Source of the DNA: Octopus vulgaris
Lineage: Eukaryota
Length of the DNA: 64,000 nt
Direction: 5' to 3'
Assembly: GCA_951406725.2 (NCBI GenBank)
Contig: OX597816.1
Span: forward strand, 178,684,001 to 178,748,000
Shown piece after piece: positions 3,635 through 47,031 of the stretch. Made by a program: the position numbers and the translations under genes. A model generated the notes under the pieces. That model saw only the letters and a list, made by a program, of their open reading frames with translations, was not told the DNA's origin and did no database searches. Within the stretch, counting starts at the first letter, position 1; each line of letters begins with the position of its first letter.

Positions 3635-4670
3635 GGCACAAGAGTGGCTATGTGGTAAGAAGCTTGCTTCCCAACCACACGGTTTCGGGTTCATACCCAC
3701 TGCATAGCACCTTGGGCAAATGTCTTCTGCTATAGCCTCGGGCTAACCAAAGCCTTGTGAGTGGATTTGGCAGACGGAAACTGTAAGAAGCCCGTCGTAT
3801 ATATATATATATATAAGATAAGAAAATGGAGAAATACATCTAAATCAAATATCAATTACCAGATAATACTCAATCACATACTTTATTAAACCACCACATA
3901 AGAGACTGTAGGGTTAAACATAAAAAAGCAGAACAAATCAGTGTACATAAAAAGGCTAATATTGGTAAAATGAGACATACTTATCTACATGGCCGAAACA
4001 GCTGTAAGATGTAATCTATACTTATATTTATATTGACTTATATTTATATTCTCTTTTTTATATATATTCTACTTATTATTCAACATTACTCTTTTATGTA
4101 CACTTTTTTATGTACATTCCTTTATGTACACTGATTTGTTCTGCTTTTTTATGTTTAACCCTACAGTCTCTTATGTGGTGGTTTAATAAAGTCTGTGATT
4201 GAGTATTATCTGATAATTGATATTTGATTTAGATGTATTTCTCCATTTTCTTATCTTGTATTAGTAATTGTGGTAAATCATTTTACCTTTGCCCATATAA
4301 TACAGTAAATGAATTGATTGCATCGCAATCCTTAACATTTATGTATTAACTTTGTTGGGTACTTCACTAGCAGTATATTGGATATATGTTATCCCATGGA
4401 GGGTTGCATTTACAACCCCTATCTCAATTTATACACACACACACACACACACACACACACACACACACATATATATATATATATATATATATAGGTATGT
4501 ATGTATATATGTATGTATGTATGTATGTATGTATGTATTTGTGTGTCCTATGTTTGTCCCCTCATCATCACTTGACACCAATGTTGGTGTGTTTACATCA
4601 CCGTGATCTAGCGGTTCGGCAAAAGAGAGCGATAGAATAAGTCCTAGGATTGATTTGTTCGACTAAAGGC
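3635..4670 (+). mobile_element. SINE family A copy split at its internal microsatellite by a fold-back insertion
   Basis: 5' half at 3635-3800 and 3' half at ~4540-4670 both match the 2597-3010 copy. Confidence 0.8.
3813..4430 (+). mobile_element. Fold-back insertion, probably a PLE pseudo-LTR with a 5' inversion
   Basis: ~140-bp inverted arms at 3815-3952 and 4121-4257. The spacer holds GGCCGAAACAGCTGTAAG, a hammerhead 3' half. Microsatellites flank both sides. Confidence 0.65.
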
Positions 4671-4679
4671 TAAGCTAAC

Positions 4680-6565
4680 TGAAGACTAGAGGTCCTGTAG
4701 ACTGCTGAGAAAAGCTGCCGCTGCTTGAGCTACATCTACTCCAGCAGTGTGGAAGCTATCGGGTGTGTTCTGCTGTTGCAAGGGCCGCAGAAACCTCACA
4801 AAAGACTGCTATTTGTCGGGCACGCAACGCTGCATCCACTTCTGCCGCGAGGTTGGCAGATAACGATAACCATCGGATGATGAGACTTCAGTCTAATATT
4901 CACCGGAAGCCTCTTACCCATAGCTATTGGAAGCCAGTGATAGTCGATGGGCATCAAAGGCGCTCAACTATGATCCTGCCGAGGATTACACCACTCATCG
5001 AGAGACTGTTGCGGGGGACATGTCTGTAATATGTCCAATTTACAAGGCCCTCAAGTGGGCTGGAGAATCCAGTGGCCCAAGCTACTCAAACGGAAATATT
5101 CGTTTACCTGACCTGCAAAACACTCCTCAGCCTTTGTTCTCTTTGCTCCTTGGTCAACACCCTGACTCGCGGCAATTTATACAGATGAAAAATTTCGGTC
5201 ACAAACCCATTCATGAAGAATCCTATATGCCAATGTTCAAAATTCAGGGCCAAACCTATCATCGGATAGACTCTATTCTTCCTGTCAACAACACTGAACA
5301 CCGATTCCTTCAAATTTACTTCATGGGAGATACCGCTGAGCAAACGGTTTGCCGAGCTCAGGTGGCACCTGGAACAAAAATGCCTCTTTTGAATGAACTT
5401 CTGGAAATGCCCCTCACCACTAACCGATATGTCAGGGACTTCAAAACTGTTATACAACGCCGACATACAGACGTGCCCAACTTCAAAGTTATCATAAGGA
5501 ATGACCAAACTCCTATTGGAGAGCACCAAGGATGCTTTAACCTGCCCCAAAATAACGAAATTTCAGTTCTGCTCTGCCGTCCCGATGAAGCCATACCGTC
5601 GACTACACGGCCACGTCTTTAACTAATACATCAACATGTTTTTTCATGTCAACTCTTTAGCAGCTGTTTCGACACACCGACGTGGGATGGCGTGGGATGG
5701 TCCACAAGAGTTTTTACATCCTCATGGTGTGGACTGGGCAACGTTCTGACTATGGTCTGAATGGCTAAAAGCTTGAATACTCTACAATCATTCTTCAATT
5801 ATCATTGTGCGTTACGGGTGGACATGATCCTTTTTTAATCCTTCATGATAGCGCATTAGTGACTGTCATTATATGCAGGGGGCAACTCTAATTAAAACTC
5901 TATTCACAATAAGATTCATGCTGGCTATTTTGAGTACGTATATAGGTGTTTCTTGTTCACTTTTACCGTCATTACAACTTCACAACTATGTCTGATTTCA
6001 ACGCGACATCTTTTCACTGCGAACTGCTAAAGATTCCTTTTTCGTTACCTGAAGTCAATTTCAGATTGGTCGTACACTGTAAACATGTAGCAAATATATT
6101 CCTTTAACTCTACTTTTTCAAATATTGCTATTTTTGAACGTACCTATCATACTTTTCTCCAAAAAAAAAAAAAAAAAAGCTCCCTTCTCTGTTGAATAAA
6201 ATAAACTCGCAGAGGGGAACTTTCGCCGTCTTCCTTTAATTTCCTTACACCATTTATGTGGCTGATTCTGACAAGAAATTTCGCTTTCGTGTAAAACAAC
6301 TATATTTTATAGCCATTATCCGTAATCTACTCCCAAAACACTTTAGTAGCTCGACTTTGCATCGCTTGCAGACTTATATGTTCTATGATAATCAAAGTGC
6401 AACGACCTCTACAATAATAAGCCTTCAATTTAGTTTTCTGCTCCTAAATTAATCGGGAACATAGATTGCGTGCTACCCATAAACCTTCTCGGTAGTTCGA
6501 TTATTTGGTGAAAAAAATACCACCAAAGCAAGTTAAACCGTCCAAAGGACGGGTGCGTTTGCTAG
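4680..6565 (+). mobile_element. Helitron remnant with a Rep/helicase N-terminal fragment and a 3' terminus
   Basis: ORF 4927..5622 contains GDMSVICPIYKALKW and MFKIQGQTYHRIDSILP...FLQIYF, typical of Helitron N-terminal regions. Hairpin CCGTCC-AAA-GGACGG is followed by CTAG at 6562-6565. Continuity of the middle is not proven. Confidence 0.75.
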
Positions 6566-7289
6566 TCATTCCATAAGATTTGTTTATGGAGAAAAAATTA
6601 TGAAAAATATCAATAGATGTGTGAGTGAGAAAGAAATGAGGAGGGACATTTTGGGATGTGCTAGAAACAACAGCCAGATCTCCTTTAAATCACACATTTT
6701 CCTCTGAAATTATTAACAATATTTTTTAAACCGAAAATATTTCTCTCACGTATTTTAAGAGCGTAGCGAATAGAAAAAATGGCAAAAATCGTTTCGGACT
6801 GGGGTGGTGAGGGGTGACGGAAGTGAAAAAGAAAATTTTCAAAATTTTTTTCTGTTTTTTCCGTGAAAACATGCCTCCCATCTTTCTGAAGACTTTTGTG
6901 AAAAACACTGGAAAAAAACCTCTCAAAGCGGAGAAATTCCAACTTATGTGGGCCGTCTGATCCGAAACTCCGTTTTCTCAGAACCCCTCCCCACGCCCTC
7001 TTCCAAAACTTTTACCCATAAATTTATTTGTAATCGTAATCTGCACCGTTTGAAAGGTATTTGTATAAAATTTCATTAAAAAATACTTATTTTCCAGAAA
7101 GTTATGGGGGAGGGGAATGTCGGGTCCTGTGAATTTTCCGAAACTCCTTTCCCCAACCCCTTCAAAAATTTTTTCGAGCAAATCTTTATATACACTCAAT
7201 CTACAGGATATAAGAGATTATTTGGTGAAAGCGTCATTAAAAAGTATCCATTATTCTAGAATTTATGAGGCAACAGAATCGGTGGGGTA

Positions 7290-7423
7290 TTAAACTGTAG
7301 TTAAGCAACTCTTCAATAAAAGTTAACGTTAACGGATTAACGTTGACTTCCGTTACGTCTTCAAAGAATTAACGGATTAAAGATTAACGAAGTTAACTTT
7401 TCGATTAACGGTGCCCACCTCTG
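7290..7423. mobile_element. One end of an hAT-like MITE/transposon with subterminal TTAACG repeats
   Basis: Several TTAACG motifs ending in GTGCCCACCTCTG (revcomp CAGAGGTGGGCAC). Partner end not found. Confidence 0.45.
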
Positions 7424-7486
7424 TATATATATATTCGTTAGCTCCTACACGCATTTTTTTTCTCTCCTTGTTTTTTTTTCTGTGTA

Positions 7487-45198: not shown

Positions 45199-46307
45199 AT
45201 TATAATAGGTCGAACAAGCATGTAGTAAGTTCTTCACTACCTCCCCAAGATTACTACTGTTAGATGATATTGTTGATGTTTCAGTCCATATCAGTCGTGA
45301 TAAGGAAATATTAGATTAAAGATATCTTACATTTGACTATCCCTTCTGATTACAGGTATGTAGCAGCTCGTTATCGTATGTGTCCTCTACATGAGACGGT
45401 AAGCTATGATTCAGCTGGTGTTTCTAGCAAGTCGGGCGACCGCGGAAAGGCCACGTCATTGACATGTGGTTGTTAATAATGACGACGACGATGACGACGG
45501 CGACGATGATGATGATGACGACGACGACGACGATGTGTAGGCTTAGTCCAGGGGTCACCAATCTTTTTTCATATAGGGCCAGATATAGCTAAAAGAATGC
45601 CAAGCGTGGGTCGGATAAATATTTTGTTCAATTCAGTACAATATAGAATACACTGAATGTACACATCCTATTTATTTATCAATACGTAAAATACACAAAA
45701 TAATAAAAACAATAAACATATTTTAATAATACCAAAATATTAATAAGTTAGAATTTTTAGAAACAGTGCGCACATAGCTGAATTGCATATAAAGTGAACA
45801 GCACAAAAGCTAATGAGATTTGTGAAATTAGCGTTTTGCTTCCAAAATATCTATATATATATAAATGAGAATGTCTGTCTGTCTGTCTGTGTGAATCCCT
45901 AAAACTTGAGAACTACACAACCAATTTCATTCAAATTTTACACATGTCTTACTTAGGGTCCATGTAGTGTCATGGGCAAAATAAAGTATAACTTCTTGCC
46001 TAGGGCGAGCCCAAGGCAATATCATATCTTCTCTACTATTTCAGTATTACGTGTTAAAAGTGAAACAAAAACATCTCTCTATTGTATGTATATGGATGTG
46101 TGTGTGTATATATATATATATATATATATATATATACACACATCCATATACATACAATAGAGAGACGTTTTTGTTTCACTTTTAACACGTAATACTGAAA
46201 TAGTAGAGAATATATATACATAAATATATACACAAAAACTCAGCAAAATGCCAAAGCGTAAAAAGTAAGCAAGACAAATGAAAATATACGAAATAAAAAA
46301 CGATTAC

Positions 46308-46381
46308 CTATGTACCGATCAGTTTCACTTGTTAATATTCACGTATATAACACGCGAACATCTGCAAGATCATCAGCATAG
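46308..46381 (-). ncRNA. Type I hammerhead ribozyme, canonical core
   Basis: CTATG-CTGATGA-TCTTG...CAAGT-GAAA-CTGATCGG-TA-CATAG: perfect stem I, extended stem II, near-palindromic stem III, GUA site. Confidence 0.82.
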
Positions 46382-46409
46382 TCTGGAAATCATGTCTTTA
46401 AACGACAGA

Positions 46410-46484
46410 CTATACTGATGATCTTGCAGATATTCGCGTGTGTATATACGTGAATATTAACAAGTGAAACTAATTAGTACATAG
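46410..46484 (+). ncRNA. Type I hammerhead ribozyme, canonical core (inverted partner)
   Basis: CTATA-CTGATGA-TCTTG...CAAGT-GAAA-CTAATTAG-TA-CATAG: perfectly palindromic stem III, one mismatch at the base of stem I. Confidence 0.78.
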
Positions 46485-47031
46485 GTAATCGTTTTTTACT
46501 TCGTATATTTTCATTTGTCTTGCTTACTTTTTACGCTTTGGTTTTTTGCTGAGTTTTTTCTTGAGAACACATTCTTCGTGGAATATAGCGATTTTGACGT
46601 CTATATCTAGCATATAGACTGTCCACTTTTAGTGGTCAGTCCTTTAAATTTTGTATGTAAAAAATATTTTTAATCTTCGGATTTTTAAAAAAAATATGCT
46701 AGGCCACTGGTTTTAATTGATTAATATCAATTTCTACCCCTATTTAATTATATATATATAGACATGTATATATATGGATGTATATATATATATATATACA
46801 TGTATAGATATAGCTGTATATGTATAGATGTATTTCTATAGATATACATGTATGTGTATACATGTATGTCTAGATGTATATATATATAGATGTACACGTA
46901 ATATGTACACACACACACACACACACATACACACACACACACACATATATATATATATATATATATATATACATGCATACATATATACACCCATACACAC
47001 ATACACACACAAGCCCCCACACACATACATA

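What the first reader, a model, noticed from the sequence alone, without database searches (positions are those of the whole stretch)
3813..46558. Recurring architecture: microsatellite, fold-back and hammerhead core in several unrelated families
Seen: at least five insertions unrelated in sequence share inverted arms, a (TA)/(CA)/(TATG) neighbour and a GAAAC-(near-)palindrome-UH motif: 3813-4430, 27720-27878, 33057-34086, 34247-34810 and 46234-46558. A sixth fold-back at 28233-28393 duplicates PLE endonuclease coding sequence. Only two of these keep any ORF. Inference: a diverse population of ribozyme-bearing, mostly non-coding PLE derivatives that target microsatellites. Standard annotation would probably label them unknown repeats or MITEs.
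Basis: partly seen in the sequence, partly recalled or inferred. Interest (0 to 1): 0.72.

Follow-up and report, generated by a model that had tools for sequence, protein, structure and literature searches.

The report
Hydra-clade Penelope insertions with hammerheads
These mirror-image DNA pieces are cut-off, partly inverted copies of six repeat families that carry hammerhead ribozyme motifs and sit in TA microsatellites; four families encode Hydra-type Penelope retrotransposon proteins and two are non-coding and likely ride on them, a published layout whose two arms here almost always stop at two different fixed points.

Summary
All six fold-backs are real, but the fold-back is an insertion scar, not a family structure. 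Each is one copy of a dispersed family that also occurs in linear, 5'-truncated form, with arm lengths that vary between copies. Four families (3813, 27720, 28233, 33057) are 3' ends of coding Penelope-like elements with Hydra-clade motifs; the 28233 family is a close sister of the published Hydra-1_Obim. Two (34247, 46234) are non-coding tandem units of about 480 and 530 nt, like retrozymes. All six family majorities form a complete type I hammerhead; most window copies keep only a damaged or half core. Craig et al. 2021 already describe (TA)n targeting, hammerheads, 5' inversions and a one-sided tail. Additions here: tails of 60-173 nt (published 30-40), stem II inserts of 27-100 nt, a U4C core, and one short plus one long end in 54 of 56 scorable fold-backs. 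The scan reported this same reading earlier on other DNA of this genome. Verdict: new members of a known kind, with a testable mechanistic footprint.

The parts
3811..3951 (-). E1 (family F1) inverted arm, positions +115..+255 from the hammerhead cleavage site; stops at the short end, then (TA)n
   Evidence: (L027)
3950..4433 (+). E1 forward arm, -56..+428; long end followed by (AC)n/(TA)n; 3' end of a coding Hydra-clade family
3995..4006 (+). E1 second half of the hammerhead core; the first half (U4C type in the family) was lost by truncation
3628..3797 (+). Left half of a bipartite SINE-like repeat whose central microsatellite received E1
   Evidence: 87% to other copies; uninterrupted copies
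4558..4670 (+). Right half of the same SINE-like repeat
27657..27793 (-). E2 (family F2) long arm, -46..+93, ending in (TA)n; half core at 27747-27759
27794..27879 (+). E2 short arm with decayed core (27800-27806 and 27839-27851), ending in (TATG)n
   Evidence: short end read by eye
28233..28304 (-). E6 (family F6) inverted copy of GIY-YIG coding sequence
   Evidence: L126
28318..28845 (+). E6 forward arm: broken endonuclease C-terminus (28322-28671) and 3' region cut off inside the hammerhead
32900..33978 (-). E3 (family F3) main arm: endonuclease C-terminus 33977-33771, hammerhead 33190-33117 with one core mismatch, long end near 32900 at (TA)n
33975..34086 (+). E3 inverted arm, -51..+66, short end, half core at 34016-34027
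34087..34210 (.). (TA)62 tract shared by E3 and E4
34211..34633 (-). E4 (family F4, non-coding 478-nt unit) main arm, short end +186; damaged hammerhead 34427-34381
34633..34815 (+). E4 inverted arm, -30..+150, half core 34653-34664; interrupted by a SINE half
35061..35107 (+). Remainder of the E4 inverted arm, reaching the long end (+337) at (TA)n
46234..46385 (-). E5 (family F5, non-coding ~532-nt unit) inverted arm with an intact hammerhead at 46376-46313; outer end (+78) is neither fixed end
46382..46747 (+). E5 forward arm with hammerhead 46415-46479; long end +268, then (TA)n

Best explanation
The six fold-backs are 5'-truncated, partly inverted insertions of four coding Hydra-clade Penelope-like families and two non-coding hammerhead units, likely made when the element's protein cuts both strands of a (TA)n tract and starts reverse transcription at two different fixed sites of the RNA. 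Shown: family membership, Hydra motifs, hammerhead cores in the family majorities, two fixed 3' ends per family, and microsatellite flanks. From the literature on another Penelope element (PAc, in vitro): both target strands are cut and extended, RT starts at two internal sites that bound the tail, and the protein is predicted to be a dimer. Inferred: the two cDNAs, one begun at each site, are joined head to head, in one family by annealing through a hairpin, which leaves one short and one long arm. Also inferred: the non-coding units are copied in trans from tandem or circular RNA. The window copies are likely dead scars.
For: Coding links: F1 near-full copy L172 has RWK, DKT, YRDD, CxCx5C and CxxC, with CxH in 12 of 12 EN loci. 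F3 has RT with DKT and YRDD plus EN. F6 has RT, CxCx5C and EN; 43 of 60 residues match Hydra-1_Obim in one RT stretch, counted by eye. F2 has EN directly upstream in 2 of 24 loci. Of 91 long homologs of F1 RT, 82 have RWK, 88 DKT/S, 88 CxCx5-7C. Hammerhead core intact in 13/16, 4/18, 20/25, 8/22, 25/26 and 10/19 copies covering the motif; stem I differs between families yet pairs in each; one F5 pair shows a double change in 7 of 26 copies. Fixed ends: F1 +255/+428, F2 about +32/+93, F3 about +64/+230, F4 +187/+337, F5 about +188/+266, F6 about +26/+85. One short plus one long end in 54 of 56 scorable fold-backs; F3, whose query lacked the tail, 9 of 9 (5 and 4 each way; p about 0.002). 156 of 183 fixed ends abut a microsatellite. 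The short-ended arm is often the longer arm, which folding back one cDNA cannot give (L082, L097, L099, L101, L138, L142). In family F7 the loop-bearing arm is the long one in 5 and the short one in 3 of 8.
Against: No biochemical test. Loci are the top-scoring hits of each query, so they favour similar architecture; for F1 and F2 the main arm is long by selection. 22 of 78 loci with an inverted arm could not be scored. Two exceptions exist (L056 long/long, L026 short/short), explained only after the fact as a separate insertion and a later duplication. PAc showed no strand preference between the two start sites, so the either-or rule is not explained by published data. No autonomous partner was found for F4 or F5. 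No background rate was computed for microsatellite flanks, and about a third of the window is tandem repeat. Arms are not consistently closer to each other than to other copies (12 of 49 beat the best other locus), so one RNA versus two is unresolved. F1 and F3 are longer than the '<3 kb' given for Hydra, and F3 lacks the CxCx5C linker.
Confidence: 0.85

Rival explanations
1. Same elements, but the inverted arm is made by self-priming: one cDNA (or an antisense template, as Arkhipova 2013 proposed) folds back on a palindrome and copies itself.
For: Family F7 (window 3372-3540) turns at the same 7-nt hairpin loop of the hammerhead stem II in 8 of 8 fetched fold-backs. Arkhipova 2013 reads junction palindromes as self-priming (passages). 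Some arms share private changes (L004).
Against: A fold-back copy cannot contain a tail that its template lacks, yet in 3 of 8 F7 loci the loop-bearing arm is short and the other arm is long. In F3, F6 and F1 the short-ended arm often reaches further upstream than the long-ended arm.
Confidence: 0.2
2. The fold-backs are a distinct population of non-coding, fold-back-shaped elements that move as units.
For: F4 and F5 are non-coding with head-to-tail junctions in 6 of 24 and 6 of 26 loci. One F1 fold-back elsewhere (L028) has the same junction as the window copy with different flanks. F7 junctions recur.
Against: Four of six families continue upstream into RT/EN coding sequence. Junction positions vary from copy to copy in F1-F6. 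71 of 149 loci have no inverted arm.
Confidence: 0.08
3. The arms are terminal inverted repeats of DNA transposons (MITEs) and the hammerhead half sites are chance.
For: Half sites alone are not clearly above shuffles (16 against a maximum of 16). Rfam gave no match at gathering scores in 7 loci.
Against: Arm lengths are not fixed, the two ends differ, and linear copies are common. Complete cores with paired stems appear in all six majorities. The F5 core pattern has 135 exact genome matches against 0 for the reversed pattern. Four families carry RT/EN.
Confidence: 0.02

Closest known systems
Hydra clade of Penelope-like elements, incl. Hydra-1_Obim (Craig et al. 2021, PMC8557442; passages, sections 11-12, supplement rows and part 2 read)
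   Same: C-terminal GIY-YIG, RWK, DKT, CxCx5C linker, CxxC/CxH, (TA)n insertion, type I hammerhead near the 3' end, 5'-inverted copies (e.g. Penelope-13_HM), tail at one end.
   Different: Tails 60-173 nt rather than 30-40. Stem II inserts of 27-100 nt against loops of about 3-10 nt in the Hydra rows of File S2. U4C core in F1. F1 is about 5 kb with a long 3' region. F3 lacks CxCx5C.
Poseidon_Ac (PAc) mechanism (Frangieh et al. 2024, PMC11167929; parts 1-2 of 4 read)
   Same: Two internal RT start sites that bound the tail; AT-rich target; both strands cut and extended; uncleaved RNA used as template, which fits arms that read through the hammerhead.
   Different: Different clade; tail 30-40 nt; no either-or pairing of the two sites within one insertion in the parts read.
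Animal non-LTR retrozymes (Cervera and de la Pena 2020, PMC7229834, passages; Li et al. 2026 preprint 10.64898/2026.07.22.740005, parts 1-2 of 5)
   Same: F4 and F5: non-coding, tandem units with one type I hammerhead each, 478 and about 532 nt (published range 51-972), proposed PLE origin.
   Different: Mostly partial tandems, monomers and inversions here; circular RNA not shown; hammerheads have Hydra-type cores with a long stem II.
Penelope insertions of Adineta vaga (Arkhipova et al. 2013, PMC3846280; passages)
   Same: Inverted pLTRs, tail on one of them, head-to-head palindromic junctions, Asn-rich inserts in the ORF.
   Different: 8-10 bp TSDs there; here TSDs cannot be read inside (TA)n.

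Membership tests
Hydra-clade PLE (F1, F2, F3, F6) | RT followed by a C-terminal GIY-YIG endonuclease | tested here: met
   F1 L172, F3 L151-153, F6 L154; F2 EN only, in 2 of 24 loci. Pfam gave no hit for 3 proteins, so the assignment rests on motifs and homologs.
Hydra-clade PLE (F1, F2, F3, F6) | RWK motif and DKT in place of DKG | tested here: met
   F1 has both; F3 has DKT, its N-terminus was not recovered; not covered for F2 and F6.
Hydra-clade PLE (F1, F2, F3, F6) | CxCx5C linker | tested here: inconclusive
   Present in F1 (7 of 12 loci) and F6 (10 of 25); found in only 1 of 25 F3 loci in any frame, i.e. not met for F3.
Hydra-clade PLE (F1, F2, F3, F6) | No CCHH; CxxC and CxH around the conserved E and N | tested here: met
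   CxxC 12/12, 23/25, 14/25 and CxH 12/12, 24/25, 13/25 for F1, F3, F6; CCHH absent by eye.
Hydra-clade PLE (F1, F2, F3, F6) | Insertion into (TA)n | tested here: met
   156 of 183 fixed ends over all six families; no background control; E1 splits a SINE's pre-existing microsatellite.
Hydra-clade PLE (F1, F2, F3, F6) | Canonical hammerhead near the 3' end | tested here: met
   F1 has U4C. Cleavage not tested.
Hydra-clade PLE (F1, F2, F3, F6) | Generally shorter than 3 kb | tested here: not met
   F1 about 5 kb from ORF start to 3' end; F3 over 3.3 kb.
Hydra-clade PLE (F1, F2, F3, F6) | Placement in the Hydra clade of an RT tree | not tested
   Reference sequences were not held as tool sequences; only a by-eye match of F6 to Hydra-1_Obim.
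Non-LTR retrozyme (F4, F5) | Non-coding short unit with a type I hammerhead | tested here: met
   No RT/EN hit within the units (hits in these loci belong to neighbouring insertions); cores.
Non-LTR retrozyme (F4, F5) | Head-to-tail tandem with two consecutive hammerheads | tested here: inconclusive
   Junction read-through in 6/24 and 6/26 loci; L021 and one pair 534 bp apart have two F5 cores in tandem; long arrays not seen.
Non-LTR retrozyme (F4, F5) | Self-cleavage and circular RNA | not testable with these tools
   Only assembled contigs of guessed RNA runs were available.
MITE / TIR DNA transposon | Fixed terminal inverted repeats at both ends of every copy | tested here: not met

The most novel reading that the evidence does not exclude
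Penelope inversions are made by a dimeric RT-endonuclease that primes the two cut strands of a microsatellite at two different, fixed RNA sites, one per subunit, and joins the cDNAs head to head; the one-short-one-long rule across seven octopus-type families, with long tails and long-armed hammerheads, is its direct genomic record and extends to trans-mobilised retrozymes.
Probability: 0.45. Interest if true: 0.55.

Novelty: new member of a known kind. Interest (0 to 1): 0.3.

Why it matters
How Penelope elements form their inverted and tandem insertions is named as an open task by Craig et al.. Long tails and many copies make this genome a good place to count the outcomes, and the either-or rule gives a sharp prediction for the existing in vitro assay. 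In practice these repeats are abundant, gave no Rfam or Pfam match in the samples tried, and one octopus relative is annotated as a 'GATA zinc finger protein', so they are easily mislabelled.

Tried and rejected
Rfam scan of the window listed only microsatellite-driven miRNA noise among the 150 of 379 rows shown; gathering scan of 7 loci gave nothing. Pfam gave nothing for 3 proteins. Inverted-repeat tool output was swamped by (TATG)n arrays; replaced by masked BLAST. RNA: no RNA holder listed on record for F5; contigs of three guessed RNA runs and one unlabelled run covered parts of the unit but cannot show ends, strand or circles; no evidence either way. Arm-versus-other identity did not separate one RNA from two. 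The F1 rows were dropped because the long reference was split by low-complexity filtering; the F1 tally comes. No peak of 5' ends at the cleavage site was evident by eye; not tested formally. TSDs cannot be read inside (TA)n. Search for an autonomous partner of F4 or F5 was limited to blastn among family references and tblastn of fetched loci. My first guess of Penelope/Poseidon clade was rejected after the motif check.
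Full report
Setting. The window lies in a 2.8-Gb animal assembly. A 91% identical protein is annotated from Octopus sinensis, so an octopus is likely. About a third of the window is tandem repeat (20751 of 64000 bases masked).

Observation. Masked self-BLAST confirms inverted arms at all six places, and the five main ones abut (TA)n, (CA)n or (TATG)n. The GAAAC-palindrome-GUH half site is present in all five. It is about sixfold denser inside the elements (6 in 3791 bp against 10 in 39458 bp), but the window total is not clearly above 40 shuffles (16 against mean 6.0, maximum 16). 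A full type I descriptor finds 1 exact and 2 near-exact motifs against 0.0 and 0.05 in shuffles. In the window copies the core is whole only in E5 (twice), nearly whole in E3 and damaged in E4; E1 has half, E2 is decayed, E6 lost the second half.

Each element is one copy of a dispersed family. Own-genome searches gave 2459 (F1, 3813), 846 (F2, 27720), 3145 (F3, 33057), 400 (F4, 34247), 1463 (F5, 46234) and 654 (F6, 28233) first-look candidates, 40 scored each; these are not copy numbers. I analysed the 149 distinct loci fetched. 78 have an inverted arm and 71 do not, and junction positions vary widely. So the arms are not terminal inverted repeats.

Four families are coding. F3 continues upstream into RT and GIY-YIG. 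F6 does too. F1 looked non-coding within 1.5 kb, but longer stretches reached an endonuclease upstream of a long 3' region and a near-full element: inverted arm, upstream repeat, ORF with one frameshift, 3' repeat (L172). F2 has an endonuclease directly upstream in L075 and L060 and shares its 3' end with F6. The motifs are those given for the Hydra clade (Craig 2021, section 11): RWK, DKT, CxCx5C, CxxC and CxH. The same motifs dominate the 91 long homologs among the 120 listed. F6 matches Hydra-1_Obim at 43 of 60 residues in one RT stretch, by eye. Departures: F1 and F3 exceed 3 kb and F3 lacks the linker motif (1 of 25 loci). No tree was built.

Two families are non-coding. F4 (478 nt) and F5 (about 532 nt) read through a head-to-tail junction in 6 of 24 and 6 of 26 loci and have no RT/EN hit within the unit. 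This fits non-LTR retrozymes (Cervera 2020 passages; Li 2026 parts 1-2). Their cores resemble the Hydra rows of Craig's File S2, including the U-U base of stem II in F5. No partner element was identified.

Hammerheads. Majority sequences of all six families fold as type I hammerheads with family-specific stems and palindromic or near-palindromic stem III, the form thought to work as dimers (Cervera 2014, part 1 of 4). Intact cores: 13/16, 4/18, 20/25, 8/22, 25/26, 10/19 of the copies that span the motif. Core positions match the majority more often than flanks in all six, though the margin is small in young F1 and F3. Stem II inserts are 100, 32, 55, 27, 44 and 31 nt. F1 has U4C in 13 of 16; U4C is a known, slower variant (Perreault 2011 passages). 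The F5 core pattern has 135 exact matches genome-wide and 0 for the reversed control. Cleavage was not tested.

Two ends. Every family has a short and a long fixed 3' end, 60-173 nt apart, and 156 of 183 such ends abut a microsatellite (no background computed). E1 lies inside the central microsatellite of a SINE-like repeat whose other copies are uninterrupted, so the tract pre-existed there. Of 78 loci with an inverted arm, 56 have both ends scorable: 54 have one short and one long (F1 18; F2 9, F3 9, F4 6, F5 9, F6 3), 2 do not, and 22 are unscorable. The cleanest test is F3, whose query lacked the tail: 9 of 9, with solo copies split 8 long and 7 short. The two exceptions look like a separate insertion and a later duplication, a reading made after the fact.

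Mechanism. Published: inverted 5'-truncated copies and a 30-40 bp tail often at only one end are typical of PLEs (Arkhipova 2013 passages). PAc cuts and extends both strands and starts RT at two internal sites that bound the tail. Inferred here: each cut strand primes at a different site, and the two cDNAs are joined head to head. Simple fold-back of one cDNA fails for cases where the short-ended arm reaches further upstream. It also fails for 3 of 8 loci of a seventh family where the loop-bearing arm is short and the other carries the tail. One RNA or two is unresolved.

Novelty. The architecture, clade, target and ribozyme are published, with an octopus member. Eight paper searches and the passages read showed no count of an either-or rule, no tails this long and no octopus retrozymes, but the library lacks most subscription papers and Repbase, and I read the key papers only in part. 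My reading was written down before the look-up of earlier notes, which report the same conclusion and rule for other pieces of this genome; they are not independent evidence. Verdict: new members of a known kind; interest 0.3.

Noticed in passing
A linear copy has a full hammerhead (L193). All 8 fetched fold-backs turn at the same 7-nt loop capping stem II, with one end near +51 and the other further out; the query favoured this junction.
   Followed up: partly
window 32575-32730; locus L190: Linear 3' end of another hammerhead family (F8, 1499 candidates) next to (TATC)n; L190 has RT and endonuclease upstream.
   Followed up: partly
family F3, e.g. L080 1004-1714: This young, abundant family lacks the CxCx5C linker that Craig et al. 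associate with microsatellite targeting, yet its ends are in (TA)n; it may be mobilised in trans or the linker may be dispensable.
   Followed up: partly
family F6, e.g. L139 1117-1701: A Thr/Ser/Asn-rich insert of roughly 100-130 residues lies between the two halves of the GIY-YIG motif; F1 and F3 have Asn-rich inserts between RT and EN.
   Followed up: no
L028 (G000:C3:180184391-180185006): An F1 fold-back 99% identical to the window copy with the same inversion junction but different flanks, 1.5 Mb away.
   Followed up: no
F5 loci L010, L014, L021, L023: 4 of 26 loci hold a separate Hydra-type endonuclease fragment within 1.5 kb, and E3/E4 share one TA tract: different families pile up in the same microsatellites.
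   Followed up: no
window 46031-46208: A separate fold-back with a (TG)/(TA) centre beside E5, next to a repeat starting at about 45850 that looks Helitron-like (label recalled, not tested).
   Followed up: no
window 22354-22849, 31957-32459, 50882-52177, 61906-62947: Further inverted pairs. The last two enclose transposase-like fragments and look like DNA transposons with terminal repeats (from, by eye).
   Followed up: no
window 9223-17003: 7.8-kb satellite of an 88-nt unit (four 22-nt subunits), 96% matches.
   Followed up: no
window 4924-5622 and 47341-48810: ORF remnants resembling a Helitron Rep/helicase and an RTE-type LINE (labels recalled from the translations).
   Followed up: no
P0011: A 91% identical Octopus sinensis protein is named 'GATA zinc finger domain-containing protein 14-like', likely a mislabelled Hydra ORF.
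   Followed up: no
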